A stretch of DNA of 61,816 nucleotides, filler included, from Pseudomonadota bacterium (lineage in GTDB: Bacteria; Desulfobacterota; Desulfobacteria; Desulfobacterales; JBDRRP01), in NCBI GenBank assembly GCA_043825735.1. It is 6 parts of 6 records of this genome, joined end to end, with 100 filler letters (N's around TTAATTAATTAA, not from the genome) between each part and the next. Parts side by side here need not be neighbours in the genome. Positions count along the whole stretch, not along the records: positions 25,010 to 55,892 come from JBDRRP010000151.1; 5 more parts are not named here. One strand, given 5' to 3'. The translations under genes were made by a program, and so were the position numbers. The notes beneath the pieces were generated by a model. It was not told the DNA's origin, searched no databases, and was given only the letters and a program-made list of their open reading frames with translations. Shown here piece by piece: positions 25,333 to 55,892 of this stretch; position 1 is the first letter of the stretch; every line of letters begins with the position of its first letter.

Positions 25333-25354
25333 GAGGGATCGTTTGGCCGCCTGC

Positions 25355-25668
25355 GGCGGCGTTCTGGGCCGCTGCGCGGCCGTTCCGGGTTCCGGGTTAA
25401 AAGCGAAATGCTTCAAACCAAAGAAAAAAACATTGAACCGCCAAGGACGCGAAGGACGCTAGACGCCTATCGGCGCGTTCGGGCCGCCGGAGGCGGCGTT
25501 CTGGGCCGCTGCGCGGCCGTTCCGGGTTCCGGGTTAAAAGCGGAATGCTTCAAACCAAAGAAAAAAAACATTGAACCGCCAAGGACGCGAAGGACGCTAG
25601 GCGCCTATCGGCGCGTTCGGGCCGCCGGAGGCGGCGTTCTGGGCCGCTGCGCGGCCGTTCCGGGTTCG
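25355..25668. repeat. About 2.3 tandem copies of a ~138-bp unit
   Basis: GTTCTGGGCCGCTGCGCGGCCGTTCCGGG recurs at 25361, 25498 and 25636 with near-identical intervening DNA. Confidence 0.85.
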
Positions 25669-25966
25669 GCGCCGGAGGCGCGTTCGTGCCGCTGCGCGGC
25701 GTTCCGGGTTCCGAGTTCAAACAGCAAGAGGTCCCTCCTTCGCTGCGCTTCCGCCGTCGCTCTGCGAGCTATGGCGGACAAGATGGCGGGCAAGCAGAGG
25801 TCGGATGACAGATGACAGATTACAGCGAACTGCAAAACATTGAACCGCAAAGTGCGCGAAGGTCGCTAAGTTTTGTTCGAATCGGGTCGCCGGGAAAAGC
25901 GCTCCGGCTCACGATTCGAACAAAGGCGACGCTGAAAGAAGCTGCGCCGGATGAGCCCCCTATCCT

Positions 25967-25989
25967 ATAGCTCCGCCCGGTCGATTACA
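25967..25989 (-). promoter_or_regulatory. Conserved 23-nt ops-like element (identical copy at 45240-45262)
   Basis: TGTAATCGACCGGGCGGAGCTAT is identical in both copies while its flanks diverge; resembles ops GGCGGTAG. Confidence 0.45.
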
Positions 25990-26061
25990 GGATCAACCAG
26001 GCATTATGCATCTGTTATTATTAATTTTTCATACATATAGCGGGCGATTTTCAGCCCGCAA

Positions 26062-26640
26062 TTACCACAGCATCTTCAGCTTTTCCCGAGGCACACCGCT
26101 GTCGTTGGCAATGCCGTCGAGGCTTTCGCTGCTGGCGTCAAACAGCAATACCGCGTCGAAAACCGGCGGCGCGCGCCGGGCCATCTCCTCGGCACTTTCC
26201 AGATGTTCCACCAATCGCAGTTTCATGGACTCGGTTCGAATGATCGTCTCGATGAATTCCTTGACGATGGCCGGCCCCACGAACACCACCTGGATGAGCC
26301 CGTTTTTTTCAAAATCCGCAAGACGAACGACGAGCCGGGACTTCAGCTCGCGATATTCACCCAAGCGCTTGACCACGAAAGACACTGCCAGACGGCTCCG
26401 GGTCTCGATCCCCTTTGGGGTTAGTTTGTATATGTAACCGAGTTTGTTTGGATTCTTACGGAAATTGCCGACCTTGACGAACCCCTTATCAAGAAGCCGC
26501 CGCAGGACGTAATTGATCTGGCCGAGACTGATGCCGGTGTGATCAGAGAGCTGGCGCTGGGTGCAGATGTCCCCTGAGTCGAGGGCATCCAGGATCTGAA
26601 AATCTTTGCCGGAAAAGCTCACAGAATAAGGCCCACACAA
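26062..26640 (-). CDS. MarR-type EPS-associated winged-helix regulator
   Basis: TQRQLS..GISLGQINYVLRRLLDKGFVK...Y.YKLTPKGI. Confidence 0.88.
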   Translation of the reverse strand: MCGPYSVSFSGKDFQILDALDSGDICTQRQLSDHTGISLGQINYVLRRLLDKGFVKVGNFRKNPNKLGYIYKLTPKGIETRSRLAVSFVVKRLGEYRELKSRLVVRLADFEKNGLIQVVFVGPAIVKEFIETIIRTESMKLRLVEHLESAEEMARRAPPVFDAVLLFDASSESLDGIANDSGVPREKLKMLW

Positions 26641-27300: not shown

Positions 27301-27576
27301 TCACTGACGCTTTTCCATCAGTGGGTAGATTTCCTTGCGATGGCAGATGCCGAGTATATGTATCTCATCGCCGGCCACCTTGAACACGATGCGGTAATCT
27401 CCAACCCTGAGTTTCCAGTAGCCTTTGAGGTTCTTACGCAAAGGCTGGCCATACTCTTGAGGGGCGATCATAAGACGGTTTTCAATCGCTTTTTTAATCC
27501 GCTGGCGGTTATCAGCGTTGAGCTTCGGAATATCTCGCTCTTTGACGTCATGGTGGTAGACGACCGTAAAAGGCAT
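27301..27576 (-). CDS. RelE/ParE family toxin
   Basis: YGQPLRKNLKGYWKLRVGDYRIVF...HRKEIY. Confidence 0.92.
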   Translation of the reverse strand: MPFTVVYHHDVKERDIPKLNADNRQRIKKAIENRLMIAPQEYGQPLRKNLKGYWKLRVGDYRIVFKVAGDEIHILGICHRKEIYPLMEKRQ

Positions 27577-27577
27577 G

Positions 27578-27805
27578 CTACTCCCAGACCGCCACATGGC
27601 TCAACGCCTTGCCCCGATCAAAACTATTCTCGCGCTCCGCAGCGAAATCAACAAGCGCCTGATCCTCACGTAGTTCCAGAGCCTCTTTCACCAGGTCGCG
27701 CATCAACATCGACATGGAGATGCCTGCGTCTTCAGCAAGACAGTGCAGAGCGTTATAGAGGGGCTTTTCAAGAACAACGTTGATTCTGGGATTTTTAGCT
27801 GGCAT
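27578..27805 (-). CDS. RHH antitoxin
   Basis: NPRINVVLE...SMSMLMRDLVKEALELRED...LSHVAVW; directly upstream of the toxin. Confidence 0.85.
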   Translation of the reverse strand: MPAKNPRINVVLEKPLYNALHCLAEDAGISMSMLMRDLVKEALELREDQALVDFAAERENSFDRGKALSHVAVWE

Positions 27806-27870: not shown

Positions 27871-27983
27871 GGGCGTTTTGATCGTTTTGATCGTTTTGAT
27901 CGTTTTGATCGTTAAGAGCGTTAAGAGCGTTAAGAGCGTTAAGAGCGTTAAGAGCGTTAAGAGCGTTAAGAGCGTTAAGAGCG
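27871..27983. repeat. 9-mer tandem array (GATCGTTTT)4(AAGAGCGTT)7+
   Basis: Read directly; same family at 30131-30220, 31438-31530, 45047-45168, 46241-46400, 47266-47412, 53174-53360 and 55789-55892. Confidence 0.95.
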
Positions 27984-28157
27984 GTTAAATCTCTTTGCAG
28001 TTGCCGTTCGGCCGGCTTGTCCGCCGTCTTGTCCGCCATAGCGCAGCGACGGTGGAAGCCTTGGTTTTGGCGAAGGGGAAGGCCGCCAATTTCTATCTGC
28101 GTTTATCTGCGTTCATCCGCGTCCCATTTTGCAGTTCGCAGTTGCCTGTACATCCTG

Positions 28158-29141: not shown

Positions 29142-30110
29142 TTACGATTTCAGCATCTTGCAAAATGGATGGTATTCACCCGACAGACCGATCGGCGGGG
29201 TGTTCCGTATCTGGTGGGCTGTTTCGATACTGGCCCGGGCCTGATCGAGACCAAAGCCGTTGCCCTTCAATATCTCTTGATAGCTACGCGTGTGAAGATC
29301 GGTGAAACCGCCGGAAAACTCAATTTCCTTAGCGTCCACCGTGATCGATCGATATGTGCGCATTTTGCGTTTTAACGCTTCTTCCGGCAAATAGTTGTCA
29401 TTGACGCTCAAAAACCAACGCACGCGGGCATTCTTCAGCCTCAGATAACCGGCGGCAGTATCCGGCTGATGAATATGAACGATGTTTTCTTTTACAGGGC
29501 CAAAAATCCAGCTGAGCATATCGAAAAAATGGATACCGATATTGGTGGCGATGCCGCCGGATTTCTCAGGATATCCCTTCCAGCTCACAAAATACCACCG
29601 CCCCCGGGAAGTGAGATAGCTGAGATCGATATCGTAAATTTTGCCGGGGTCAGCAGCCAGTTCACCGCCCACCTTTTCTTTGAGCGCAATCAGACTGGGA
29701 TGAAGTCGGAGTTGAAGGATATTCCATACCCTGGCGCCCTGCTCCTCCGCGATTTCAGCCACGGCATCGATATTCCAGGGGTTGAGCACCAGCGGCTTTT
29801 CGCAGATGGCATCCGCCTTGATGCGCAGGGCAAACCGGATATGAGCGTCGTGCAGGTAGTTGGGAGAACAGATGCTCACATAGTGGATGGGCTGCGCCCC
29901 TTTTCGGCGCTCTTTCTCAGCATGACGGTCAAAGCGCTCGAATTCGGTAAAAAAGGCTGCGTCAGGAAAATAGCTGTCTATCACACCCACCGAATCTTTC
30001 GGGTCCATTGCCATTACCAACCGGTTTCCAGTTTCCGCGATCGCCTTCATATGCCTGGGCGCGACATATCCTGCAGCCCCGATCAATGCAAAATTCTTTA
30101 TTTCCTGCAT
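29142..30110 (-). CDS. wbpB: WbpB/WlbA-like UDP-GlcNAcA 3-dehydrogenase
   Basis: FALIGAAGYVAPRHM, FFTEFERFDRH, CSPNYLHDAH, CEKPL, TNIGIHFFD. Confidence 0.9.
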   Translation of the reverse strand: MQEIKNFALIGAAGYVAPRHMKAIAETGNRLVMAMDPKDSVGVIDSYFPDAAFFTEFERFDRHAEKERRKGAQPIHYVSICSPNYLHDAHIRFALRIKADAICEKPLVLNPWNIDAVAEIAEEQGARVWNILQLRLHPSLIALKEKVGGELAADPGKIYDIDLSYLTSRGRWYFVSWKGYPEKSGGIATNIGIHFFDMLSWIFGPVKENIVHIHQPDTAAGYLRLKNARVRWFLSVNDNYLPEEALKRKMRTYRSITVDAKEIEFSGGFTDLHTRSYQEILKGNGFGLDQARASIETAHQIRNTPPIGLSGEYHPFCKMLKS

Positions 30111-30319
30111 GGTTTGGTCCTCAGCATTTCAAGAGCGTTAGGAGCGTTTTGATCGTTGGGAGCGTTAGGAGCGTTTTGATCGTTGGGATCGTTAGGAGCG
30201 TTTTGATCGTTGGGAGCGTTTGGCCGCTGCGCGGCGTTCTGGCGACCGGAGGTCGCGTTTCGTGTTCGAAGTTCCGGGTTGCCGGTTGGTGCCGGAGGCG
30301 AATTTGAAGCGTAAAGTTT

Positions 30320-30442
30320 GATAAAACCGTAAAAAGTGATTTTGAACCACAGAGACCGCAGAGAAAATACCGAATAATTAGCAAGTTATCTCTGCGTTTT
30401 CTGTGTCCTCTGTGTTGAATTCTGACTTTTTACGAAGGCATC
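30320..30442. mobile_element. MITE copy 3
   Basis: TIRs GATAaaacCGTAAAAAGT / ACTTTTTACGaaggCATC; flanks AAGTTT/AAGCTT; internal cacagag/ctctgtg hairpin. Confidence 0.7.
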
Positions 30443-31423: not shown

Positions 31424-32165
31424 ATCATTTCGCCTATGGAGCGTTGGGAGCGTTTAGATCGTTGGGAGCGTTTAGATCGTTAGGAGCGTTGGGAGCGTTT
31501 AGATCGTTAGGAGCGTTGGGAGCGTTGGGAGTGTGGGCGCCGAGGGTGCGTTCTGGCCGCTACGCGGCGTTCCGGGTTCCGGGTTGGCGCCGGAGGCGCG
31601 TTCCAGGTTCCGGGTTCGGCGCCGGAGGCGCATTCTGGCCGCTACGCGGCGTTCCGGGTTCAAAATCGCTAACGGCAAAGACATTGAACCGCGAAGGACG
31701 CCAAGGACGCTAAATCAAAATTCTTTGGTTTTCGCTGTTTCTGTCGTCTGGCAGTTCGTCTTGTCCGCCAAAGCCTTAGCGGAGGTGGAAGCCTTTGCAG
31801 AAGTGGAAGGCCGCCACACCATCGCCTTCAACACCATAAAAACAATTTTCACCACCGCAGAGAAACAGAGTGAACGGAGAACTGCAGGTTTTGATTTCGG
31901 GAGATACCGAAATCAAAACGGTTTCGATCGCCTCCGGCGAGGTGGTGCATCATGCTAACAAAACCGTTAATACTTGGCTGGTTTTACCATGCTATGACCA
32001 CTGTCGAACTGCCCGAAGGGCTGGAACCCTTTTGGGATCACGGCATCTCCCGGGATCCCAAAAACTCTGTTTCCTCTGTTCCTCTGTGGTGAAATCACCC
32101 TCACAGTTGCGTTCGGCCGTCTTGTCCGCCGAAGCCTTGGCGAAGGTGGATCTGCGCCAAAGACT

Positions 32166-33164: not shown

Positions 33165-33425
33165 GGGTATGAGCCTTTGGCACTGCGTTAGTTGGCCGCC
33201 TGCGGCGGGGGAAAACCTTTTTGGCACGGATTACACGGATTGCACGGATTTGGGCACTGCGTTAATTGGCCGCCTGCGGCGGGGGAAAAGCTTTTTTGGC
33301 ACGGATAGGGTTTGCGCACCTGCAGCGCTTTAAACCGTGTAATCCGTGGAATCCGTGCCAAGGAGCTTTTGTGCTGTTATTTTTTTATTTATAATAGCAG
33401 TGACAAAAGAATTTTTACCCCGTGC

Positions 33426-33803
33426 CTAAGGCTTTTTGGTTTTGGTGAAAACCTTGCGTTTGATCTGAACGCTTTGGGCAAAGTTGATCAGGAGGCCGAT
33501 TTCAATGCCTGTTGCTTTGAGATAGTTGTTCAATTGCGCCTCGTGGGCCGGATGCAACTCTTTTATGGATTTCAGCTCCAGGATTACTTTCTCCTCGACG
33601 AGAATATCGGCAATGTAGTCTCCGACTATTTTTTCATCGTAAAGGACTTTGATCGGCACTTCCATTTGAGCGTTAAGGCCTGCCTTTTCAAGTTCGATCA
33701 TGAGTGATTTCTGATAGACCGCTTCAAGGAAGCCAAATCCAAGGGTATTGTGGACTTTGTAGGCACAGTCGATGATCTTGGCGGTGAGGTCACTGTGTTT
33801 CAT
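33426..33803 (-). CDS. GxxExxY protein
   Basis: VHNTLGFGFLEAVY, YIADILVE..VILELKS, HEAQLNNYLK, GLLINF. Confidence 0.93.
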   Translation of the reverse strand: MKHSDLTAKIIDCAYKVHNTLGFGFLEAVYQKSLMIELEKAGLNAQMEVPIKVLYDEKIVGDYIADILVEEKVILELKSIKELHPAHEAQLNNYLKATGIEIGLLINFAQSVQIKRKVFTKTKKP

Positions 33804-34140
33804 GGATATTGTTGGCGCTGCGTTAATGGGCCGCCTGCGGCGGGGGAAAGCTTTTTTGGCACGGATTACACGGATTGCGCCTATACGGCTTAAAAAGCGA
33901 CGCGGATTTGGGCACTGCGTTAGTTGGCCGCCTGCGGCGGGGAAAACCTTTTTGGCACGGATTACACGGATTACGCGGTTAAGAAATTACGCAGCGCCTT
34001 CGGCGCTTTAATCCGCGTAATCCGTGTAATCCGTGTAATCCGTGCCAATGAGCTTTTATGTTGTTATTTTCTTCATTAAAAATAGCAGTGCCAAAAAGCA
34101 TTTTCCCCCGTGCCTAAGGCTTTTGAAATTTAGGACCGGA

Positions 34141-35364
34141 TTATTTTGACAGATATTCTTCGTAGGTTGTCCGGATGCCGTCTTCGAGTGCGATTGACGC
34201 CTTCCAGCCGGCGGCGTTGATTCTGGACACATCGAGGCGCTTTCGGTACATGCCGTCGGGTTTGCTGCTGTCGAAGACCATATCGCCAGTAAAGCCAATC
34301 GTTGTTTTTACCAGCGCGGCCAGTTCGGCGATGGTCGCGTCAGCGCCGCTACCGACATTCACAAATGAGACGCCGGTGTCGGTGGTGGCCCGTTGATAAG
34401 CAGTTTCTTCCATTTGCATGACGTGGATGCAGCCGCCGGCCATGTCGTCGACGTGGAGAAATTCGCGGTAAGGCGCCCCCGAGCCCCACAGGATCACGGC
34501 GGGTGGGACTTCAGAGGGCAGAGGACAGAGGACAGAGGACGGAGAAACGCATTCCGGGTTCAAGGTTCCGGGTTCAAGGTTGGCAGCCGAAGGCTGCGTA
34601 AAACCCTCTTTGGGTTCAATCTGTGTAATTTTTTGAAGCCGTGTAGGCGTAATCTGTGGATAAACCGTTTTTTGGCCGTTGCGGATGGCAATTGCGTTTA
34701 GTGAATGGCGGATGTCTTCCGGGATGGGGCCGTAGGTTTCCTCGTCATATAGAATGCCTTTTCCGTCGCCAATTTCGGCCAACTTGGCCAGGTGGAATTT
34801 ACGGATCAGGGCCGGCAGGACATGGGAGTTTTGAAGGTTGTAATTGTCATTGGGGCCATAGAGATTTGTGGGCATCACCGACCGGTAGTCAGAGCCGTAT
34901 TGCCGGTTGAGGCTTTCGCAAAGTTTGATGCCGGCTATTTTGGCAATCGCGTAGGGCTCGTTGGTCGGCTCCAAGGCACCGGTGAGCAGGTATTCTTCCT
35001 TCAAAGGTTGGGCTGCCGCAGTCGGGTAGATGCATGAGCTGCCCAAAAACAGCAGATTCTTTACCCCTGCCTTGAACGCCCCCCAGATCACGTTGTTTTG
35101 AACGGTCAGATTCTCGTAGATGAAATCGGCCCGGTAGGTGTTGTTCGCATAAACTCCGCCCACGCGGGCTGCGGCCATGAACACGCCGTCGATCCTGTTG
35201 CTTTCAAAAAATGCGAAGACGGCCCGCTGGTCCAGCAGGTCGAGCTGCTGCCGGGTGCGGGTGATGATGTTGGTGTAGCCGTCCTTTTGGAGACGGCGGA
35301 GGATGGCCGAGCCGACCATGCCCTTATGGCCGGCGACGAAAATGGAATCATTTTTGTTCAACAT
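34141..35364 (-). CDS. fcl: GDP-L-fucose synthase with a repeat-derived insertion
   Basis: GHKGMVGSA, AAARVGG, GSSCIYP, YAIAKIAG, MPTNLYGPNDN, WGSGAPYREFLHVDD. Confidence 0.93.
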   Translation of the reverse strand: MLNKNDSIFVAGHKGMVGSAILRRLQKDGYTNIITRTRQQLDLLDQRAVFAFFESNRIDGVFMAAARVGGVYANNTYRADFIYENLTVQNNVIWGAFKAGVKNLLFLGSSCIYPTAAAQPLKEEYLLTGALEPTNEPYAIAKIAGIKLCESLNRQYGSDYRSVMPTNLYGPNDNYNLQNSHVLPALIRKFHLAKLAEIGDGKGILYDEETYGPIPEDIRHSLNAIAIRNGQKTVYPQITPTRLQKITQIEPKEGFTQPSAANLEPGTLNPECVSPSSVLCPLPSEVPPAVILWGSGAPYREFLHVDDMAGGCIHVMQMEETAYQRATTDTGVSFVNVGSGADATIAELAALVKTTIGFTGDMVFDSSKPDGMYRKRLDVSRINAAGWKASIALEDGIRTTYEEYLSK

Positions 35365-35418
35365 TTCAAAACCAATATTTCACCACAGAGTAACAGAGAT
35401 AATAGAGTATAATTTGAT

Positions 35419-35829
35419 TCAGGGAGATGCCTGAATCAAATCATCATTCGGTAGCATTAGGCGAGTGATACCATCTTTTAACAAGACCACGTTAAAGTTG
35501 ATTAATAAACCAACCGGAGCTTTTAATATCTTCATGTATGTCATGGCCTGGGCTTCATGGATTGTCTCTATTCTTTTGCATGACTTGAGCTCTACAACAA
35601 CTACGTCGTCAACGAACAGGTCAACACGGTACTTACATTCTGTCGGCTTCCCCTTATAAACGATGGGAATTTCCTTTTGCCTTGAGAAGGCAAGTCCACG
35701 ATTACTGAACTCTAAACACAGGCATTCTTCGTAGATGTTCTCGAGAAGTCCTGGACCGAGCTCTTTGTGGACCTCTATAGCAGCGCCTATAATTGCCCCC
35801 GTGAGAACGTTGATCGAGTCATTTACCAT
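35419..35829 (-). CDS. GxxExxY protein
   Basis: AIEVHKELGPGLLENIY, YRVDLFV..VVVELKS, HEAQAMTYMK, GLLINFNV. Confidence 0.93.
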   Translation of the reverse strand: MVNDSINVLTGAIIGAAIEVHKELGPGLLENIYEECLCLEFSNRGLAFSRQKEIPIVYKGKPTECKYRVDLFVDDVVVVELKSCKRIETIHEAQAMTYMKILKAPVGLLINFNVVLLKDGITRLMLPNDDLIQASP

Positions 35830-35970
35830 AAATAATTTTTACCACAGAGGTACAGAGAAAACAGAGTTTCTGGAATCCCGGAAGGCGACGCAAACTGTTT
35901 TGATTTCGGTATCTCCCGAAATCAAAACCAGTCGTTCTCCGTTCACTCTGTGTCTCTGTGGTGAACTGAT

Positions 35971-37149: not shown

Positions 37150-37243
37150 CGGAGTTTTCCTTGTGGAATTGAGCCATGGTTGGTGGTTGGCATCGATTCA
37201 GGGATTTAGGAATTTAGGAATTTAGGAATTTAGGAATTTAACG

Positions 37244-37615
37244 CTATTTTGACTGGAGATCTCGGAGATATTTGCGGAAACCTTTAATCTGTTTGCGGCA
37301 ATCCGCTGCCAAATCGTATACGCGCCTGAATTGGTTTTCATCAATGTAGCCACAATCCGTTGCGCGGTAGAGCTGGGACTGTACTTCACTGCATGAACGC
37401 TGAGAGTATCCTAAGAACTTCACGAACTCCTTTGTGGAGCTATCATCAAACCCCTCGGCGATATTGTCCATCACCGATCCCGAAACCCGCCAAATCTGGT
37501 CCTTTAAACTGTAATCTCTGTTAAAAGGCACAGCATTAATAATTTTCCAAACTTCGCGACACAACTCTCGCGCCACCTGCCAACAAGGCAATTCTTCGAA
37601 TGTCTTATAGCCCAT
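37244..37615 (-). CDS. Four-helix-bundle protein (23S rRNA IVS protein family)
   Basis: FEELPCWQ.A, LKDQI.R...SVMDNIAEGF, EFVKFLGYS..S..EVQSQLY.A.D.GYI. Confidence 0.92.
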   Translation of the reverse strand: MGYKTFEELPCWQVARELCREVWKIINAVPFNRDYSLKDQIWRVSGSVMDNIAEGFDDSSTKEFVKFLGYSQRSCSEVQSQLYRATDCGYIDENQFRRVYDLAADCRKQIKGFRKYLRDLQSK

Positions 37616-37743
37616 TTTTAGTTCCTGCAGTTTTTAAGCCGTTTAGGCGCAATCCCTCAATTCCTGTCGCTTTTTAAGCCGTATAGGCGCAATCCCTGAA
37701 TTCCTGAATCCCTCAATTCCTGAATCCCTCAATCAGCTTTTTC

Positions 37744-38010: not shown

Positions 38011-38407
38011 GGGGTCACCTCGAATTGCGCCTATACGGCTTCAAAGATTGGCACTGCGTTAATTGGCCGCCGGTGGCGGGAAAACCTTTTTGGCACGGAT
38101 TTCACGGATTACACGGATTAAAAAAAGAGAATTTTCGCGGCCTGCGGCCGAAGGGCAACAGCAAAGAGATTTAACCGCGGATGACGCAGATTAAAACCAA
38201 GAGGTTTGTTCGAATCGTGACCCGGGGCGCTTTTTTCCCGGCGACCCGATTCGGACAAAACTTAGCGTCCTTCGCGCACTTCGCGGTTCAATGTCTTGCA
38301 GTTCGCCGTCATCCGGCTTTTCTCCGACCTCCGACCTCTGACCTCGGACCTCGGACCTCGGACCTCGGACTTCTGACCTCTGACATCTGGCATCTGACTT
38401 CAACCCT

Positions 38408-39424: not shown

Positions 39425-39509
39425 AGATTGCACCGATTTCCACAGATTAAAAAAGAGAGTTTTAGCGGCCTGCGGCCGAAGGGCAACTGCAACAATGACT
39501 TCGGATATC

Positions 39510-39579
39510 CGCAGATTACGCAGATTACGCAGATTACGCAGATTACGCAGATTACGCAGATTACGCAGATTACGCAGAT
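39510..39579. repeat. (CGCAGATTA)x7+ array
   Basis: Read directly; same family as CACGGATTA around the first GxxExxY gene. Confidence 0.95.
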
Positions 39580-39988
39580 GGGCGGCCTTCGGCCGGGAAA
39601 GCTAAAATCAACTACAATTTATCCACAGATTACACAGATTAAAAAAAAGAGAGAACGGCCTGCGGCCGAACTGCCACTGCAAGGGCAATTTTGGCACGGA
39701 TTGCACGGATGACGCGGATTATAACCAACGGGTTATTCAGCCTGCGGCCGGGAACTGCAAGATGACAGATGACAGACGACAGACGACAGACGACAGAAAA
39801 ACCAAGAGCAGAAATCAACTGCAAAGAGAATTAACCGCTGAGAGCGCAGAGGAAAAATGATTTGGGCGCTACACGCGGAACAGCAAAAAACGGTCTATTT
39901 TCTATTAACTTTTTACTATTCACGTTTCACTGCTTTTTCGATGCTCCAAACGATCTAAACGCTCATAACGCACCGCAGGCGCCCGCCT

Positions 39989-41407: not shown

Positions 41408-41725
41408 GGACAGAGGACAGATGTCAGAGGTCAGATGTCAGAGGGCAGATGTCAGATGTCAGATGTCAGATGTCAGAGGGCAGATGACAGCAAAACCGAA
41501 AAGCAAAGAGATTAGACAGGATTAACAGGATGTACAGGATAATGGCGGCCTTCCACCTTCGCTCTACGAGCTACGGCGGACAAGTCGGCCGAACGGCAAC
41601 TGCAAGGGCGCATTAACCGCAGACAGGCGTGAAAGGCCCTTCGCGGTTCAATGTCTTGCAGTTCCCTGACATCTGACTTCTGACATCGGACTTCTGACAC
41701 CTGACCTCCGACCTCCGACATCTGG
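41408..41725. repeat. Inverted pair of 7-mer arrays (GTCAGAT/GACAGAG)n ... (TCTGACM)n bounding the ugd-ftsB spacer
   Basis: Arrays at 41408-41490 and 41665-41725 are complementary; the family recurs more than 10 times. Confidence 0.85.
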
Positions 41726-42049: not shown

Positions 42050-42321
42050 CTTTTATTCAGGGATTAAGGAATTCAGAGATTGTGAATTAGCGGCCTGCGG
42101 CCGAACGGCAACTGCAAAGAACATTTTGGCACGGATTACACGGATTAACACCAAATGGGTTAAACGGCCTGCGGCCGGGAACTGCCAGAGGGCAGACGAC
42201 CGAAAAACCGATTAGGATTTTGAGCCAAAGGGACTAAAGGGACCTAAAGGACCAAAACGATCCTAACGCACTCAACGCTCATAACGATCCTAACGCGCCG
42301 CAGGCGCCAGCCGTGCGCCGT

Positions 42322-44779: not shown

Positions 44780-45333
44780 AGATTACACAGATTTGCGCCT
44801 ACACGGCTTAAAAGCTCCACAGATTAAGAGCAAAAGGGGCGGCCTTCCGCCTTCGCCAAGGCTACGGCGGACAAGTCGGCCGGGAACTACCAGAGGTCAG
44901 AGGTCCGAAGTCAGATGGCAGAGGACAGAGGACAGAGGACAGAGGACAGAAAAACCAAGACCGAAGAGCAACTGCAAGGACGAATTAACCGCAGATTGCG
45001 CCGGCACGGCTTAAAAAGCGACGCGGATACCGCGGATGAAGGACCTAAACGATCATAACGATCTTAACGATCCCAACGATCTCAACGCTCCCAACGATCC
45101 CAACGATCTCAACGATCCCAACGATCTCAACGATCCCAACGATCCCAACGATCCAAACGTTCATAACGCGCCGAAGGCGCCGAACCCGGAACGCCGCGCA
45201 GCGGCCAGAACGCGACCTCCGGTCGCCAGACCGGTTTTCATAGCTCCGCCCGGTCGATTACAATGTCGACATGGAATTATCATATTGTTTTTACAGCTTT
45301 TTTATATATAGCTGGCAGCTTTTCCGTCAGCTA

Positions 45334-45561: not shown

Positions 45562-46065
45562 TAAACCCACCCCGCAAACCCGGATGAATCCGCCGAAAGC
45601 CCGGGTGGCCGCGTTTTTGTCATTGCGGATGCCGGAACGCGTCCGGCATGACGACCGAAGGACTTTATAATGCGCCATCAACTCTGCTTTTGGGGTGGAA
45701 CGCAACGCGCTGGGATAAAATCAAAAGCGGCCTGTCTCTGTGTTTTCCTGGCCCGATCAGGTGCGGATAAAACATCGCGATAACAAAGGCATGGCCATCA
45801 CATCGTTAGCCAAAGTGGTTTTGTTCAAAACCGAACACACTTTAATGCTGAACAACGAATCAAGTCAAGGAATAAGCGTATGAAATGATTCATAATGGCC
45901 TCGCGGCCTTCGGCCGGAGGACAGAGGACAGAGGACCCCCTTCGCCAAGAGGCTACGGCGGGCAAGCAGAGGGCAGATTTCAGAGATCGGATGTCGGAGG
46001 TCTGAAGTCGGAGGTCAGACTGCTGAGAGCAAATAACCGATCACGGTCTCTTTTCTATTAACTTC

Positions 46066-46207
46066 GACGAATCTGTAAAAGTTCGAAAAGCCGCCACCCC
46101 GGCGACCGCCGGCGTATAGAAGTGCTTGAAATCACTGGATCCCGAATCTCGCTTCACTCGTCCGGGATGACTAAAAAAGGAAAAATCCGACTTTTTACGA
46201 GTCCATC
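46066..46207. mobile_element. MITE copy 4
   Basis: TIR ends, flanks AACTTC/AACTTT; a homologous empty site lies at 39891-39940. Confidence 0.8.
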
Positions 46208-46480
46208 AACTTTTTACTATCCACCGTTCACCGCTTTTCCGACGATCCCAACGCGCCAAACGATCATAACGATCCCAACGCGCCAAACGATCTAAACGAT
46301 CTAAACGATCCCAACGATCTAAACGATCCCAACGATCTAAACGATCCTAACGATCCTAACGATCCTAACGATCATAACGATCATAACGCTCCAAACGCTC
46401 ATTTTAACAGGATTGGGCCGAGAAAAAACAAAACGGCGCAGGCATGGTGAGTCACCTGCGCCGTATGGAATGCTGGGAAA

Positions 46481-46735: not shown

Positions 46736-47460
46736 AGGTACTGCTCCTTTTTGGGGTTCATCGTGAAAACGGACTTATAAAAAGTTCCGTTTGTTGTGTC
46801 AAGGGATTTTTTGATCGAAACGCGGCAAACGGCAAATGGGACGCGGATGAGCGGCCGTTGGCCGAACTGCAACTGCAAGGGCGAATTAACCGCGGATTAC
46901 GCAGATTACGCGGATGAGCGGCCTTCGGCCGGGAACTGACAGAGAGCAGATGACAGAGGTCGGAGATCGCGTGACAGAAACAGCGAAAGCAAAGATATTT
47001 AACAGGGATGTACAGGATATACAGGATAAGGGCGGCCTGCGGCCGTGACTGGCAGAGGGCAGACGACAGATGGCAGATGGCAGATGGCAGAAACACCAAA
47101 AACAAAGAAATTTTGACAGGATTAACAGGATGTACAGGATAAGGGGCGGCCTGCGGCCTGAGGGCAACTGCAAGGACATTATTCACCACCAGGAACGGCG
47201 AAACCAGAGGATTTCAGCACAAAAGGACCCAAGAGACCTAAGGGACCAAAAAGACTTGGCGACCTAAACGATCCTAACGATCCCAACGATCCTAACGATC
47301 CTAACGCTCATAACGCTCATAACGCTCCTAACGATCCCAACGCTCCTAACGCTCCTAACGCTCCTAACGCTCCTAACGCTCCTAACGATCCCAACGATCC
47401 TAACGCTCACAACGTTTCTTTCTTGTCATTTTGAATGATATCAGTCATTTTCAGCAAATT

Positions 47461-49026: not shown

Positions 49027-49377
49027 CGGCGGAGGTCAGAGGTCAGAAAAACCAAAAACAAAAATCAACTGCAACTGCAAAGAAGATGGGACGCGGATGA
49101 ACGCTGATAAACGCAGATAGTGAATCAGTGGCCTGCGGCCGGACACCCACTGCAAAGAGATTTAACCGCAGATGACGCGGATAACGCGGATTGGCACTGC
49201 GTTAGTTGCCGCCTGCGGCGGGGAAAAGCATATTGGCACGGATTACACGGATTGCGCGGTTTTTGGCGCTGAAAGCGCCTTAAATTTTAACCGCGAAATC
49301 CGCGTAGCTGTTTAAGCCGTATAGGCGCAATCCGTGCCAAAAAACGCCCTTGCAGTTGCCCTTCGGCCGCAGGCCGT

Positions 49378-49914: not shown

Positions 49915-50188
49915 GGAGTCTCGAATGGCAGAGGTCAGATGTCGGAAGTCAGAGGTCAGTCGACAGAAAACGCTTTAAGGTCGGATCGGTCCGAAGGCCG
50001 ATCATCCGAGTAATCTGAAGGCTTTGCCGGTGGCCGTTTACTCGACTTTGCAGTTGTTTTTGGTTTTCCTGATCTCTGATATCTGACATCCGACATCTGA
50101 TATCAGCCCCTTGCCCTTTGCTGTCATCTGCTTGCCCGCCGTAGCTTTAGCGAAGGAGGGTCGTCCGCCCTCCGACCGCGTGCCGTCG

Positions 50189-52780: not shown

Positions 52781-53533
52781 GCCCTTCTTTCCTTAAAATA
52801 GTGGCCGGCGGCCACAGGGGGTTGACGCAATTTAGTAATATTTTCAGGTATCTGAGTCCATGCACCGAAAACAACGTCGCCACGGTCAGTGTCACTGCCT
52901 ATGCCATAATGCCTGTCAAAGTGCAAGCGGCCTGCGTTCGGCAGCTGCCAGAGGACAGAGGACAGAAAAACCGAGAACCCCAAAAAAACAACAGCAACTG
53001 CGAATTAACCGCAGATGACGCGGATGGCGCGGATGGTCGGCCTGCGGCCGGAGGGCAAATAAACGATAATGATCCAGCGACGGTCTCCGTGAACCCGGAA
53101 CCTGGAACCTGGAACGCGCCGAAGGCGCCAACCTGGAACGCCGCGCAGCGGCCAGAACGCGCCTCCGGCGCCCAACGCCCCCAACGATCCCAACGATCTT
53201 AACGCTCCCAACGATCTTAACGCTCCCAACGATCTCAACGATCCCAACGATCCCAACGATCCCAACGATCCCAACGATCCCAACAATCCCAACGATCCCA
53301 ACGATCCCAACGATCCCAACGATCCCAACGATCCTAACGCTCAAAACGCTCCTAACGCTCGGACACCAAAGTGCTGTAATTCACTGACATTTCGAAAGAT
53401 TAGCCAGAAAATCGTTTGACTTGTACTCGACAATCCCATATTCAATCAGCACCATGCCACTGAGCGCCGGAGCGCAATCCAGAATTCGGCCACCAACCCA
53501 TAATCCAGCTAACAATGGAGATCATCACCTTCT

Positions 53534-54997
53534 ATGAGCAGTAAAATACTGATCAACGCCGTAGATGCCGAAGAATGCCGCATCGCTAAAGTCACTGACA
53601 GTCAGCTGGAAGAATTCCAGATCGAAACCTCATCCCACCGGATCACCCACGGCAATATATATAAAGGTATTATCACCCGGATCGAGCCGAGTCTCCAGGC
53701 GGTGTTTGTCGACTACGGCACCGACCGAAACGGGTTTCTCCAGAAACAGGAAATTCACTACGACTATTTTCAGGACTCCACCAGCCCGGATCGCACCATG
53801 CACCAACTGGTCAAAAAAGGTCAGGAGCTGCTGGTCCAGGTGACCAAGGATCCGCTGGGCAGCAAGGGCGCCATGCTCACCACTTTTATCTCCCTTCCGG
53901 GACGATACATCGTGCTGATGCCCGGAGCGGAAAATCGTGGAATTTCTCGGAAAATCGAAGATGAGGAAGAGCGCGCACGCCTCAAGGAAATCATTCATGG
54001 GCTTAAAATCCCTGAAGGATTCGGCCTCATCGTCCGCACTGCCGGACTAGGATGCACCAAGACCCTCATCAACAACGATCTCAACTACCTGCTGCGCCTG
54101 TGGAAAAACATCAAAAACCAGGTCATGCAAGAGCCTACACCGGCGCTCATGTACGAGGAGCGCAACGTGGTGGTTCGCTCCCTCAGGGATTACTTCACGT
54201 CAGACATCGTTGAAATCCTTATTGACGATCCGAAAGTCTACGAGGAAGCCAAGGAGTTCATCCAGCTGATCGCCCCCAAACAGGCCAATATCGTCAAACT
54301 CTACCGGGGTCCCAAACCCATTTTCAGCAAGTTTCAGCTCGAGCATCAGATCTCCTCCATTTTCGAAAGCCGGGTGGGGCTCAAGGCCGGCGGATCCATC
54401 GTTATCGAACAGACCGAAGCCCTGGTGTCCATCGATGTCAACTCCGGCAAGGCCACCAAAGGCAAGGATATCGAAGAGACCGCCTTCGAAACCAATATGG
54501 AAGCTGCCGAGGAAGTCGCCCGTCAACTCCGGATGCGGGACATGGGCGGCCTCATCGTCGTTGATTTCATCGACATGAGAGATAACAAACATCGCAGCGA
54601 AGTGGTCAAGACGCTTAAAAACCATATGAAAATAGACAAGGCCCGCTCGCGGATCGGCCGCATCTCCAATTTCGGGCTCTTGGAATTGTCCCGTCAACGG
54701 CTGCGCCCGTCCATTGATTTCGGCCGGTTCGATACCTGCCGCTACTGCCGCGGAAAGGGGGTGATCCCATCAGCCGACACCCTCGGCGCCGAGTTCCTGA
54801 GAAAGCTCAATTTGGAGACCTTGACGCCCAATATGACAGTGGCCAAATGCATGCTGCCCATGCCCACGGCCGCCTACGTACTCAACAAAAAACGCCGCGA
54901 AATCATGGAGTTGGAAGCCCGCAGAGGGGTGCAGATATTCATCGAAGGGGATCCGGACATGATCCCGGGAGAGTCGCATATCGCCATGGAACCCTGA
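53534..54997 (+). CDS. Rne/Rng family ribonuclease
   Basis: S1 GNIYKG..EPSLQAVFVDYG, IDVNSG, LRMRDMGGLIVVDFIDM, ELSRQR, CxxC. Confidence 0.94.
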   Translation: MSSKILINAVDAEECRIAKVTDSQLEEFQIETSSHRITHGNIYKGIITRIEPSLQAVFVDYGTDRNGFLQKQEIHYDYFQDSTSPDRTMHQLVKKGQELLVQVTKDPLGSKGAMLTTFISLPGRYIVLMPGAENRGISRKIEDEEERARLKEIIHGLKIPEGFGLIVRTAGLGCTKTLINNDLNYLLRLWKNIKNQVMQEPTPALMYEERNVVVRSLRDYFTSDIVEILIDDPKVYEEAKEFIQLIAPKQANIVKLYRGPKPIFSKFQLEHQISSIFESRVGLKAGGSIVIEQTEALVSIDVNSGKATKGKDIEETAFETNMEAAEEVARQLRMRDMGGLIVVDFIDMRDNKHRSEVVKTLKNHMKIDKARSRIGRISNFGLLELSRQRLRPSIDFGRFDTCRYCRGKGVIPSADTLGAEFLRKLNLETLTPNMTVAKCMLPMPTAAYVLNKKRREIMELEARRGVQIFIEGDPDMIPGESHIAMEP

Positions 54998-55020
54998 CAG
55001 GCTGAGACACGGAGCCCATT

Positions 55021-55776
55021 ATGCCGAAAAAACAAACTGAGCCATCCCGGAAGGTGATTATCGGGGCCGTAGTCGTTCTCGTCTTGCTGATCATCGTCGC
55101 CGGGATCTGGCTGCTGCAACAAAACAAAGCGGAAAAAGCATCGGCGCCCCCACCGGAAAATAGTGCGGTGTCGGTCAAAAACCAGCCCGTCATCGATTAT
55201 AATCAGCTAAACAAAGACAAAGCGCTGGGCGACATGATGGATGAGCGAAAGGCCGCCTACGGGGTGGACAAAGGACTGGACATGATCGTCAAAGCCGACG
55301 AGTCTGTAAAGATCGGCGATGAGACGGTGAATATGGGAGACGTCCAGCGCAAGATCCACGCAAAAGAAGGCGGCATCGTCGAGCAGAATCTTCTGTTGAG
55401 CGCTAAAGGGCCGGCAGACGCCTACGGCATCTATGTGGTGCAGCCGGGCGACAATATCTGGAACATCCATTTCAAACTGCTCAAAGACTATTTTTCCCAC
55501 AAGGGTGTGGACATCGCACCCATGGCCGATGAACCCGACCAGAAGGGTTTCAGCTCAGGTGTTGGCAAGCTCCTGAAATTTTCCGAAAACATGGCCTACA
55601 TCTACAATGTCAAGGAGCGCGCCCTCACCGCCGATCTCAACCTTATCCAGCCCCTGAGCAAAATCGTCGTCTACGACATGAAAAAAGCCTTCGACCTGCT
55701 GGAGACTATCGACTTCAGCAAGGTGCACACGATCCGCTTCGACGGTGAGAACATCTGGATCCCGGCGCAGCAATAG
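55021..55776 (+). CDS. Membrane-anchored protein with a LysM-like motif
   Basis: N-terminal TM helix; YVVQPGDNIWNI. Confidence 0.7.
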   Translation: MPKKQTEPSRKVIIGAVVVLVLLIIVAGIWLLQQNKAEKASAPPPENSAVSVKNQPVIDYNQLNKDKALGDMMDERKAAYGVDKGLDMIVKADESVKIGDETVNMGDVQRKIHAKEGGIVEQNLLLSAKGPADAYGIYVVQPGDNIWNIHFKLLKDYFSHKGVDIAPMADEPDQKGFSSGVGKLLKFSENMAYIYNVKERALTADLNLIQPLSKIVVYDMKKAFDLLETIDFSKVHTIRFDGENIWIPAQQ

Positions 55777-55788
55777 GCCGCCGGAGGC

Positions 55789-55892
55789 GCGTTTAGAGCG
55801 TTTAGAGCGTTTAGAGCGTTTAGAGCGTTTAGAGCGTTTAGAGCGTTTAGAGCGTTTAGAGCGTTTAGAGCGTTTAGAGCGTTTAGAGCGTT
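55789..55892. repeat. (TTTAGAGCG)x11 perfect array at the contig end
   Basis: Read directly; the contig ends inside the array. Confidence 0.95.

What the first reader, a model, noticed from the sequence alone, without database searches (positions are those of the whole stretch)
25340..55892. All repeat families follow one polarity rule relative to transcription
Seen: on the sense strand, stop codons are followed by an opening arm (CAGAGG/CAGATG, GAGCGTT/GATCGTT, CACGGATT/CGCAGAT, GGAATT). Starts and promoters are preceded by the complementary closing arm (CTCTG/CATCTG, AACGCTC/AACGATC, AATCCGTG, AATTCC). The rule flips correctly at divergent (rpsT/murJ, leuS/rne) and convergent (murJ/lptE) junctions. 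It also holds in contig 3 (16660-16770, 19885-20055). I found no clear exception by eye. Inference: slippage alone would not give this; it points to insertion or selection acting on the transcript or on one DNA strand.
Basis: seen in the sequence. Interest (0 to 1): 0.85.

Follow-up and report, generated by a model that had tools for sequence, protein, structure and literature searches.

The report
Mirror-image repeat hairpins between genes
The gaps between genes in this sulfate-reducer-type genome hold small mirror-symmetric repeat elements, and the "polarity rule" follows from that symmetry and is not a signal tied to the direction in which genes are read.

Summary
The pattern is real. On the window contig, 16 of 17 spacers holding both motif kinds read "opening then closing". 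Genome-wide, purine-rich arrays precede pyrimidine-rich arrays in 228 spacers against 8.

The rule is strand-symmetric. Reverse-complementing "A ... rc(A)" gives the same string, so it "flips correctly" at every junction by construction and says nothing about transcription.
- 161 of the 228 pairs are complementary hairpin arms.
- Tests that can see direction are negative. A 137-bp element with unlike ends lies 23:17 sense:antisense. Sense RNA does not fold better than antisense (64:88).
- The rest are fixed-order composites (CAGAGG/CGCRGAT modules, then (AACGMTCNN)n), inserted in either orientation with about a 3:1 sense bias.

What does relate to transcription is placement: the arrays avoid divergent spacers and lie nearer stops.

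The same rule is in print for Xanthomonas and Nostoc heptamers (PMC4692102), and CACGGAG-type pairs for Geobacter (PMC2700814). This scan noted such hairpins before in other Desulfobacterales genomes.

The arms also bracket small GxxExxY-nuclease and four-helix-bundle genes: 9 of 10 here, 19 of 28 in other genomes.

Verdict: new member of a known kind.

The parts
27874..27988 (-). (CGTTTTGAT)4.4 + (CGTTAAGAG)8.7 on the + strand. This is an AACGMTC-type nonamer array read on the - strand toward the RHH/ParE gene pair.
30133..30220 (-). (GAGCGTTAG)9.8 on the + strand. Read on the - strand it is (AACGCTC..)n, ending 23 bp upstream of the start of the - strand oxidoreductase gene 29142-30110.
31438..31531 (-). 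(GGAGCGTTG)10.4 on the + strand. Read on the - strand it is (AACGCTCC.)n, 15 bp upstream of the start of the HD-domain gene 30632-31423. GC-hairpin/GTTCCGG modules follow at 31567-31635.
33225..34055 (.). Hairpin (CACGGATTA / CCGTGGAAT, 33225-33357), then a GxxExxY (PDDEXK_3) gene at 33426-33803 on the - strand, then a near-perfect hairpin at 33945-34055 ((CACGGATTA)n ... (TAATCCGTG)n).
   Evidence: Fold energy -67.9 (+) and -63.5 (-) kcal/mol, z -11.9 and -11.0. Flank inverted repeat 15/16.
34505..34660 (.). A complete opening>closing element inside the 407-aa epimerase ORF 34141-35364, read through in frame: (CAGAGGA)4.7, GTTCCGG units, a GC hairpin, then TAATCTGTG units.
35385..35970 (.). 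(ACAGAGTA)3, then a second GxxExxY gene (35419-35829, - strand), then the complementary flank.
   Evidence: flank inverted repeat 14/16
37196..37734 (.). (ATTTAGGA)5.6, then a four-helix-bundle / 23S-rRNA-IVP gene (37244-37615, - strand), then (AATCCCTG/AATTCCTG)5.5. The gene lies in the loop of an array-armed inverted repeat.
   Evidence: flank inverted repeat 14/16
38094..38398 (.). (CACGGATTA)3 ... (CTCTGAC)11: opening then closing arrays in a -/- spacer.
39425..39988 (+). Composite spacer. Same-direction X modules: (CGCAGATTA)7.8, GC hairpins, caactgcaa / aattaaccgc anchors, (AGACGAC)5.4. Then an AT-rich module and a short AACGATC array.
   Evidence: the lone array is unstructured, z +1.25
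41411..41724 (.). (CAGAGGT/CAGATGT)10 ... (CTGACAT)8.4, an inverted array pair.
42130..42295 (+). (CACGGATTA)2, (AAAGGGACCT)n, then (AACGATCCT)4.4.
44780..45240 (+). X>Y composite: CACAGATTA units, (CAGAGGA)8.6, CGCRGAT units, (AACGATCCC)12.4, then three GAAC-plus-GC-hairpin modules. The opening and closing arrays are not complementary to each other.
   Evidence: array z -1.8
45917..46402 (+). (GAGGACA / GAGGTCG) arrays, an AT-rich module, then (ACGATCCAA)17.3 pointing at the 3' end of rpsT.
46433..46464 (-). Intrinsic terminator of rpsT (12-bp stem plus T tract). It lies between the rpsT stop codon (46481) and the array.
46800..47408 (+). rpsT/murJ divergent spacer: X modules (CGCGGATTA, CAGAGG/CAGATGG, ACAGGAT), then (AACGMTCCT)15.8 ending 53 bp before the murJ start.
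   Evidence: The same-genus genome has a spacer of about 210 bp with one oppositely oriented 4.7-copy array.
49032..49377 (.). murJ/lptE convergent spacer: opening units (CGCAGATAA, CGCGGATAA), then closing units.
49929..50104 (.). lptE/leuS spacer: (CAGAGGT)4.4 ... (CTGATAT)5.1.
52937..53376 (+). X>Y composite inserted between the conserved leuS- and rne-proximal flanks: (CAGAGGA), (CGCGGATGG), GAAC-hairpin modules, (CCCAACGAT)20.8.
   Evidence: Conserved flanks are 52887-52936 and 53377-53468 against G001.
55789..55892 (+). (GCGTTTAGA)11.6 running into the contig end.
16394..16770 (.). Contig 3, convergent spacer: a (CGCAGAGG)3 ... (CTCTGCGC)2 hairpin, then closing-orientation X modules next to the - strand gene's stop.
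23525..23670 (.). Contig 3: (CACAGAGGG)8.8, a loop, then (CTCTGYGG)3.2 with a gttcaaaatcactttttac-type end. A family-1-like hairpin with unequal arms.
   Evidence: z -4.95

Best explanation
The spacers are colonised by non-autonomous repeat elements of two architectures.

(1) Dyad-symmetric hairpin elements. Their two arms are short tandem arrays of 7-9 nt units. The main superfamilies are CRCRRAK-NN and AAGGGKYC. The 5' arm is the purine-rich version and the 3' arm its complement. A string of the form A...rc(A) is its own reverse complement. Each strand therefore reads 'opening then closing', whatever the direction of the flanking genes.

(2) Non-palindromic composites with a fixed internal order. 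X modules come first: CAGAKGN and CGCRGATNA arrays, small GC hairpins, and caactgcaa / aattaaccgc anchors. An AT-rich module, an (AACGMTCNN)n array and GAAC-hairpin modules follow. A composite fills the middle of a spacer and occurs in both orientations.

Shown: the symmetry, the complementarity, the lack of transcriptional polarity in asymmetric markers, insertion relative to a congener, and the presence of the hairpin type across the order.

Inferred: the elements spread by insertion. The full-length form carries a GxxExxY PD-(D/E)XK nuclease or a four-helix-bundle gene in the loop. Arms then grow and shrink by slippage. Copies that disrupt promoters are lost, which leaves the bias toward gene 3' ends.
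For: Logic: for a left-hand gene on + (stop adjacent) the rule asks for 'opening' on +. For a left-hand gene on - (start adjacent) it asks for 'closing' on -, which is again 'opening' on +. Gene strand drops out.

Data on the order:
- O>C against C>O is 228:8, and alike in all four gene configurations.
- 161 of 228 O>C spacers have arms complementary at 12/14 or better, against 41 of 228 with partners shuffled.
- 575 of 1307 arrays have an inverted partner within 300 bp. The 5' arm is purine-rich 200:20 and the 3' arm pyrimidine-rich 190:21.
- Arm order is fixed within families: CRCRRAK 243:4, AGGGK 66:1.
- The hairpin at 33945-34055 folds equally on both strands (z -11.9 and -11.0).

Markers that can see direction:
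- The family-1 element has 69 copies, all with unlike A and B ends and never AA or BB. In co-directional spacers its A>B strand is sense 23 times and antisense 17.
- Sense RNA is more stable in 64 of 152 hairpins and antisense in 88, p=0.19.
- Both orientations of the X>Y composite occur among same-strand genes of the window contig.

Insertion:
- Composite 52937-53376 lies between flanks conserved in G001.
- The rpsT/murJ spacer is 725 bp here and about 210 bp in G001, with an oppositely oriented array.

Spread across the order:
- CRCRGAGx2...CTCYGYGx2 occurs in 41 of 151 Desulfobacterales genomes. The reversed arm order gives 0 matches here and occurs in 7 of 151 genomes.

Cassette link:
- 9 of 10 GxxExxY/IVP genes here have an inverted repeat of 14/16 or better between their flanks, against 13 of 400 random genes.
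- 19 of 28 do so in 20 other genomes, against 1 of 50 shifted controls. There the left arm is purine-rich in 14 and pyrimidine-rich in 2.

In print:
- The same distance and strand rule 'irrespective of the ORFs orientation', plus convergent pairs, for Xanthomonas and Nostoc heptamers (PMC4692102; passages and section 13 read).
- Paired TCTCCGTS x3 sites on opposite strands in Geobacter (PMC2700814; passages and supplement legends read).
Against: - 53 of 228 O>C spacers have non-complementary arrays (10/14 or less). Arrays with no detected partner still obey the rule: 312 of 428. My 'fixed-order composite' account of these rests on anchors and on reading examples, not on a full element census.
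- Non-palindromic X anchors read outward 62:19, and also at the few sites near starts, 12:2. This is expected if a composite fills its spacer, but I did not show that for each case.
- Family-1 stems show 143 G.T cells against 6 A.C cells on the A>B strand. That points to one functional strand and is not explained by pure symmetry.
- Gene calls come from my own simple caller. Long-array copy numbers are uncertain.
- No transposition event, empty site with target duplication, or transcript map was seen.
Confidence: 0.75

Rival explanations
1. One reading: selection on the transcript. G-rich 'opening' arrays are 3'-UTR signals and C-rich 'closing' arrays are 5'-UTR signals, for example stabilising or terminating hairpins or 5'-3' pairing. 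Orientation would then be set by the direction of transcription.
For: - Arrays are depleted from divergent spacers: 0.45 per kb against 1.1-1.4 per kb.
- They lie nearer stops, 107:48.
- An A tract lies upstream of 119 of 228 hairpins and a T tract downstream of 105 of 228, against baselines of 0.25 and 0.24. This resembles bidirectional terminators.
- (AACGMTCNN)n arrays sit 8-100 bp upstream of a same-strand start in 30 of 39 cases, often directly before RBS-ATG.
- X anchors are sense-biased in co-directional spacers: 33:17, 16:5, 13:3, 22:8.
Against: - The rule is strand-symmetric and cannot test this.
- The G-rich strand is on sense 392 times and antisense 378.
- Family-1 orientation is 23:17.
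- Sense folds are no more stable than antisense folds (64:88).
- The rpsT terminator precedes the array.
- The rne-side array lies upstream of the region conserved with G001.
- Loops have a median of 68 nt, far above terminator loops.
- Lone arrays are unstructured.
Confidence: 0.08
2. A strand-specific DNA process sets the orientation: replication direction, or single-strand transposition by a Y1 (RAYT/IS200-like) enzyme.
For: - G.T is far commoner than A.C (143:6) on one strand of family-1 stems.
- The genome holds 8 Y1_Tnp matches. Five resemble REP-associated tyrosine transposases, but below the curated cut-off (45-68 bits against 80).
Against: - Both arms flip within each spacer, and + strand counts are 600:574.
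- Family-1 orientation against local GC skew is 22:11 and 16:14, p=0.31. GC skew is itself barely informative here: r=0.075 with gene-strand bias.
- None of the 8 Y1 genes has a CRCRRAK-type array within 400 bp. One has an unrelated GGAATGGG array.
Confidence: 0.06
3. The arrays are multi-site binding platforms for a regulator or nucleoid protein, as Aklujkar et al. proposed for the Geobacter paired sites. Their orientation at gene ends would then be functional.
For: - Units are conserved across genera.
- Sites are paired, as in Geobacter classes 1-3.
- Arrays sit immediately upstream of about 30 starts.
Against: - Copy numbers and unit spellings vary freely. The CRCRRAK superfamily has 40 unit variants.
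- Arrays are absent from orthologous spacers of a congener.
- One element is tolerated in frame inside a gene.
- No candidate binding protein was found.
Confidence: 0.08

Closest known systems
GGGAATC heptamer repeats of Xanthomonas and GGGGA(C/T)T repeats of Nostoc PCC 7120 (Rehm et al. 2015, PMC4692102; passages and section 13 read)
   Same: - Tandem 7-nt units, mostly intergenic.
- Fewer sites between divergent ORFs.
   Different: - Here there are many unit families of 7-9 nt, and most lack G tracts, so G-quadruplexes are not the common theme.
- Non-palindromic composites and long nonamer arrays are added.
- That paper gives no symmetry explanation and found no link to mobile elements.
Geobacter metallireducens 'putative global regulator binding sites' classes 1-3 (Aklujkar et al. 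2009, PMC2700814; passages and supplement legends read, supplement files not opened)
   Same: - Class 2 is three tandem repeats of TCTCCGTS[Y], paired on opposite strands at variable distance. That is the reverse complement of the (CACGGAGA)3 arms found here.
- Classes 1 and 3 are paired octamer and heptamer arrays.
[quoted passage not shown]
   Different: - They were interpreted as regulator binding sites, and no polarity analysis was reported in the passages I read.
- Different order (Desulfuromonadales-type), and fewer copies (21 pairs).
REP / BIME / REPIN-RAYT systems (PMC3116915, PMC3337134, PMC3733652; search listing and abstract starts only)
   Same: High-copy extragenic hairpin-forming elements. 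Doublets in inverted orientation. Preference for gene 3' ends. Lineage-specific bursts.
   Different: - The arms are tandem arrays and not a 20-40-bp palindrome.
- No GTAG or CGTC tag is seen at the stem foot of the family-1 consensus.
- No array-flanked RAYT was found.
TAACTGA direct repeats of marine Beggiatoaceae (MacGregor 2015, PMC4679880; passages read)
   Same: [quoted passage not shown] This is the closest analogue of the (AACGMTCNN)n arrays (30 of 39 forward).
   Different: - A 9-nt unit, up to about 20-37 copies against 2-6.
- An RBS usually follows the array here.
- Limited to this genome and one congener among the 41 genomes searched.
ORF-bearing 23S rRNA intervening sequences (Coxiella IVS with S23p; PMC4990558, listing and abstract start only)
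   Same: A small PF05635 / four-helix-bundle gene enclosed by inverted repeats, described as a selfish element.
   Different: Here the cassette (37196-37734) sits in a polysaccharide gene cluster and not in 23S rRNA. Its arms are tandem 8-mers.
Rickettsia palindromic elements
   Same: A palindromic repeat inserted in frame in a protein-coding gene (34505-34660 in the epimerase ORF).
   Different: One case seen here. Unrelated sequence.

Membership tests
Convergent heptamer-repeat pairs (Xanthomonas/Nostoc type, PMC4692102) | Tandem short units (about 7 nt), mostly intergenic | tested here: met
   1307 of 1789 non-redundant arrays of period 6-10 are intergenic.
Convergent heptamer-repeat pairs (Xanthomonas/Nostoc type, PMC4692102) | Two arrays close together on opposite strands (inverted pair) | tested here: met
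   575 of 1307 arrays have an inverted partner within 300 bp. 161 of 228 O>C spacers are complementary.
Convergent heptamer-repeat pairs (Xanthomonas/Nostoc type, PMC4692102) | G-rich strand nearest its 5' neighbouring ORF, irrespective of ORF orientation | tested here: met
   562:208 (G-rich) and 884:291 (purine-rich); the same in all gene configurations.
Convergent heptamer-repeat pairs (Xanthomonas/Nostoc type, PMC4692102) | GGG runs able to form G-quadruplexes | tested here: not met
   The dominant units (CGCAGAGG, CACGAAGNN, CACGGATTA, CAGAGGA) lack G tracts. Only the AAGGGGTC-type families have them.
Geobacter class-2 paired sites (PMC2700814) | Three tandem TCTCCGTS[Y] units, paired on opposite strands at variable distance | tested here: met
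   (CACGGAGNN)3 ... (NNCTCCGTG)3 copies, e.g. G000:C40:56891-56972 and C44:38900-38979. The type occurs in 41 of 151 genomes of the order.
REP/REPIN-RAYT | A RAYT gene flanked by the repeats it mobilises | tested here: not met
   8 Y1_Tnp matches, none with a hairpin-family array within 400 bp. The best NCBIfam REP_Tyr_transpos scores are 45-68 bits, below the 80-bit cut-off.
REP/REPIN-RAYT | Conserved GTAG or CGTC tetranucleotide at the foot of the palindrome | tested here: not met
   The family-1 consensus has neither at the stem foot. Other families were not examined.
MITE | Terminal inverted repeats plus target-site duplication | tested here: inconclusive
   Terminal inverted repeats are present in family 1 (TTGA..CGTAAAAAGT / ACTTTTTACG..TCAA). 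No empty sites were compared, so target-site duplication was not assessed.
Leader tandem repeats (TAACTGA type, PMC4679880) | Forward orientation immediately upstream of start codons | tested here: met
   For (AACGMTCNN)n with at least 4 units: 30 of the 39 arrays that have a gene on their 3' side lie upstream of a same-strand start, commonly 8-100 bp away. RBS-ATG often follows directly.
ORF-bearing IVS-like / GxxExxY cassettes | Small PF05635 or PF13366 gene bracketed by inverted repeats | tested here: met
   9 of 10 here against 13 of 400 random genes. 19 of 28 in 20 other genomes against 1 of 50 shifted controls.
ORF-bearing IVS-like / GxxExxY cassettes | Location inside 23S rRNA (helix 25/45) with RNase III excision | tested here: not met
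   The window copies lie between protein genes of a nucleotide-sugar cluster. Processing is not testable with these tools.

The most novel reading that the evidence does not exclude
The array-armed hairpins are the gene-less majority of a widespread, undescribed selfish cassette. Its full form carries a GxxExxY PD-(D/E)XK nuclease gene, or a four-helix-bundle gene, in the loop. The nuclease would act on one strand of the array hairpin to spread or maintain it, which would account for G.T far outnumbering A.C. In this lineage one derivative, (AACGAUCCN)n, has been co-opted as a copy-number-tunable leader in front of about 30 genes, many in polysaccharide clusters.
Probability: 0.3. Interest if true: 0.65.

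Novelty: new member of a known kind. Interest (0 to 1): 0.35.

Why it matters
It removes a tempting false lead. A rule that 'flips correctly' at every gene junction looks like proof of transcript-level selection, but any dyad-symmetric element satisfies it. The same pattern reported without explanation in Xanthomonas and Nostoc can be read the same way.

What remains of interest:
- These hairpin arms are shared across Desulfobacterales, burst in single lineages and break short-read assemblies. They can sit in frame inside genes.
- They bracket small nuclease-like genes far more often than chance allows. That gives a testable candidate for the unknown machinery behind 'heptamer repeats'.

Tried and rejected
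- Rfam: no family matches 25010-55892 at E<=0.1.
- RNA evidence: no RNA holder is listed for this DNA. The two metatranscriptome runs of the same study carry only short look-alike pieces of the repeats. No statement on expression is possible.
- Replichore test: the draft has 160 contigs, and GC skew correlates with gene-strand bias at only r=0.075. The test of family-1 orientation against skew (p=0.31) is therefore uninformative and not a negative result.
- General compositional gradient: outside the arrays, spacers show almost no purine or GC skew away from gene ends, apart from the Shine-Dalgarno zone. The rule belongs to the repeats and not to the spacers.
- RAYT link: rejected for lack of repeat-flanked Y1 genes.
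- First alignment of all 67 family-1 copies was spoiled by long-loop copies. It was redone on the 54 copies of 132-142 nt; 13 copies were dropped.
- Literature: no paper holds the Desulfobacteraceae or sulfate-reducer repeat term sets I tried. The 'GxxExxY protein' search gave one unrelated paper, after a first search timed out. So I found no description of the cassette link in this library. Subscription journals are not covered.
- Supplement files of PMC2700814 and PMC4692102 were not opened. They may hold orientation tables that bear on the comparison.

Full report
WHAT THE WINDOW IS. The 61.8-kb window is six contigs of one 6.8-Mb, 160-contig assembly, joined by runs of N. The finding lies on contig C151 (window 25010-55892). 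LeuS is 70-73% identical to Desulfobacteraceae and Desulfobacterales MAGs. It also shows a long minus-strand cluster of nucleotide-sugar enzymes. That cluster is interspersed with two GxxExxY (PDDEXK_3) genes and one four-helix-bundle / 23S-rRNA-IVP gene.

THE OBSERVATION. TRF lists 7-, 8- and 9-nt arrays in nearly every spacer.
- 17 spacers hold both kinds. 16 read opening-then-closing on the + strand.
- The exception is 30111-30631.
- By array and nearest gene end, 29 arrays fit, 8 do not and 10 are compositionally ambiguous.
- The contig-3 examples are as described.

Genome-wide I used my own gene calls (5497 genes, 82% coding) and TRF, which give 1307 intergenic arrays.
- The purine-rich strand reads away from the nearest gene 884:291. 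The G-rich strand does so 562:208.
- In the 313 spacers with two or more oriented arrays the order is O>C in 228 and C>O in 8.

So the pattern is real and far beyond chance. It is a strong tendency and not an exceptionless law.

WHY IT IS NOT A TRANSCRIPTIONAL POLARITY. Write the rule out for a gene on the left of a spacer. If the gene is on +, its stop is adjacent and the rule asks for 'opening' on +. If it is on -, its start is adjacent and the rule asks for 'closing' on -, which is 'opening' on +. The gene's strand cancels. The rule is equivalent to 'opening on the left, closing on the right, on either strand'. Flipping correctly at divergent and convergent junctions is therefore guaranteed.

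The data agree with this.
- O>C holds alike in --, ++, +- and -+ spacers: 78:3, 78:2, 50:1, 12:1.
- The G-rich strand is on the sense strand of the nearest gene 392 times and on the antisense strand 378 times.
- The + strand as a whole shows no bias (600:574). Because orientation flips inside each spacer, replichore cannot be the cause.

WHAT THE REPEATS ARE, CLASS 1: HAIRPIN ELEMENTS.
- 575 of 1307 arrays have an inverted partner of the same unit within 300 bp.
- 161 of 228 O>C spacers have arms complementary at 12/14 or better, against 41 of 228 with shuffled partners.
- The example at 33945-34055 is a near-perfect hairpin on both strands (-67.9 and -63.5 kcal/mol, z about -11 to -12).
- Arm order is fixed within families: CRCRRAK superfamily 243:4, AAGGGK 66:1. 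A few small families have 5' arms that are not purine-rich (CGTGTGTTT, ATCGGT). 'One rule for all families' therefore rests mainly on two superfamilies.

One family is a defined element of about 137 bp. It reads TTGA..CGTAAAAAGTGATTTTGAAC-(CRCAGAGNN)3-loop-(NNCTCTGYG)3-GTGATTTCAGACTTTTTACG..TCAA. It has 69 copies and unlike ends, A and B, so it can report direction. In co-directional spacers its A>B strand is sense 23 times and antisense 17. Across 152 co-directional hairpins, sense RNA is the more stable fold in 64 and antisense in 88 (p=0.19). Neither test shows transcript-level polarity.

CLASS 2: FIXED-ORDER COMPOSITES. In the window many opening and closing arrays are not complementary. 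An example is 44780-45240, with (CAGAGGA)8.6 and CGCRGAT units followed by (AACGATCCC)12.4. Lone arrays are unstructured (z -1.8 and +1.25).

Reading 43 AACGMTC arrays with their flanks shows a recurring order. X modules come first: CAGAKGN and CGCRGATNA arrays, small GC hairpins, and caactgcaa / aattaaccgc anchors. Then comes an AT-rich module, then (AACGMTCNN)n, then GAAC-hairpin modules.

Both orientations occur among same-strand genes of C151. GAKCGTT is on + at 27.9, 30.1 and 31.4 kb. AACGMTC is on + at 42-53 kb.

Here a real but partial polarity appears.
- 30 of the 39 arrays that have a gene on their 3' side lie just upstream of a same-strand start. 9 abut the stop of an opposite-strand gene.
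- X anchors are sense-biased in co-directional spacers: 33:17, 16:5, 13:3, 22:8. These counts are not independent of each other.
- X anchors lie mostly after stops: 67 near stops against 14 near starts for CAACTGCAA.

TRUE LINKS TO TRANSCRIPTION.
- Array density is 1.41 per kb in convergent spacers, 1.1-1.35 in co-directional and 0.45 in divergent.
- In co-directional spacers the hairpin lies nearer the stop, 107:48.
- About half the hairpins have an A tract before and a T tract after, 119 and 105 of 228 against a baseline of about 0.25. Loops have a median of 68 nt.
- At rpsT the canonical terminator lies between the stop codon and the array.

These points fit avoidance of promoters, and perhaps occasional terminator-like activity. 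They do not fit a coded UTR signal.

INSERTION AND SPREAD. The same-genus genome G001 (4.1 Mb) is syntenic.
- Its leuS/rne spacer shares only the two gene-proximal flanks (52887-52936 and 53377-53468). It lacks the 440-bp composite.
- Its rpsT/murJ spacer is about 210 bp against 725 bp here. It holds one 4.7-copy array pointing the other way, toward rpsT.
- AACGMTC arrays occur only here and in G001 among the 41 genomes searched.
- The CRCRGAG hairpin type occurs in 41 of 151 genomes of the order. There are bursts here (206 matches) and in G097 (287), and 0-13 elsewhere. By my tally of the table, the other 149 genomes hold 116 matches in the forward order and 7 in the reversed order. The reversed order gives 0 matches here.
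- One complete O>C element lies in frame inside the epimerase ORF.
- Arms can be very unequal, for example 8.8 against 3.2 units at 23525-23670. This fits slippage after insertion.

A STRAND ASYMMETRY THAT REMAINS. In 54 family-1 copies the stem has 26 pairs. There are 1306 unchanged cells, 68 one-sided changes that keep pairing, 4 double changes and 24 broken cells. G.T cells number 143 against 6 A.C on the A>B strand. Copies share ancestry, so these are not independent events. The excess still suggests that one strand is the folded, functional one. Orientation shows no link to transcription, and the GC-skew test has no power. I leave this unexplained.

THE CASSETTE LINK. Earlier notes of this scan on other genomes gave the lead.
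- Seven GxxExxY and three strong IVP genes occur in this genome.
- 9 of these 10 have an inverted repeat of 14/16 or better between their 200-bp flanks, built of the same units. An example is (CACGGAGAA)3 - gene - (CTCCGTGTC)2.8. The figure for random genes is 13 of 400.
- In 20 other Desulfobacterales genomes, 19 of 28 GxxExxY genes show the same, against 1 of 50 shifted controls. The left arm is purine-rich in 14 and pyrimidine-rich in 2.
- In the window, the four-helix-bundle gene at 37244-37615 sits in the loop between (ATTTAGGA)5.6 and (AATCCCTG)5.5.

The gene-less hairpins therefore look like derivatives of gene-bearing cassettes. The mechanism of spread is inferred and not shown.

WHAT IS KNOWN.
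- Rehm et al. 2015 (PMC4692102) report, for Xanthomonas GGGAATC and Nostoc GGGGA(C/T)T heptamers, 70-75 convergent pairs per genome. [quoted passage not shown] That is this rule.
- Aklujkar et al. 2009 (PMC2700814) list paired TCTCCGTS x3 sites on opposite strands in Geobacter. These are the same arms as here.
- MacGregor 2015 (PMC4679880) describes forward-oriented heptamer arrays just upstream of starts.
- REP/REPIN-RAYT systems are analogous, but membership fails: no repeat-flanked RAYT and no GTAG/CGTC tag.
- This scan has met such hairpins before in other Desulfobacterales genomes and reached the same symmetry reading.

VERDICT. The interpretation as a transcription-relative polarity is an artefact of a strand-symmetric definition. 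The elements are a new member of a known, poorly understood kind. Their link to GxxExxY and four-helix-bundle cassettes is the part worth following.

Noticed in passing
window 34505-34660 (inside ORF 34141-35364, - strand): A complete opening>closing repeat element is read through in frame inside a GDP-sugar epimerase-like gene. It adds roughly 50-70 residues between the two Pfam Epimerase stretches. This resembles the Rickettsia palindromic elements.
   Followed up: partly
window 33426-33803, 35419-35829, 37244-37615: Two GxxExxY (TIGR04256 / PF13366) genes and one four-helix-bundle (TIGR02436 / PF05635) gene are wedged into the nucleotide-sugar cluster. Each is bracketed by inverted tandem-array arms.
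   Followed up: yes
window 43662-43720: (GGCACGGACT)5.9 lies between the longest possible start (43779) and the better-scoring start (43635) of the UDP-glucose dehydrogenase-like gene. It is either a translated 10-nt repeat or a leader array.
   Followed up: no
window 25345-25711: A 138-bp unit repeated 2.4 times at 97% identity. It is built of GC hairpins separated by GTTCYGG units. The same modules flank the nonamer arrays elsewhere (45160-45230, 53091-53170).
   Followed up: partly
window 55789-55892; G000 C25:36-112, C27:126-202, C71:37-113, C104:29-105: Contigs end in arrays or in family-1 elements. The repeats fragment the assembly, and an independent contig set breaks inside the long arrays.
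   Followed up: partly
G000 C86:120979-121842, C34:195-1199, C128:1-1032, C112:6137-7222: Several 290-360-aa proteins have an N-terminal Y1 transposase domain similar to REP-associated tyrosine transposases, but below the cut-off. One of them (C86) also gives a weak DnaA-C-terminus-like match in its tail. None has repeats beside it.
   Followed up: partly
genome handle G097 (another genus of the order): A second, independent burst of CRCRGAG hairpins: 287 matches. They often stand in series, which gives 55 apparent 'reversed' pairs.
   Followed up: no
window 27301-27805: A ParE-toxin / RHH-antitoxin gene pair lies next to the first nonamer array.
   Followed up: no
window 7299-9777 (contig C149): A short contig with markedly lower G+C (0.44-0.48) than the rest of the window (0.49-0.62).
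   Followed up: no
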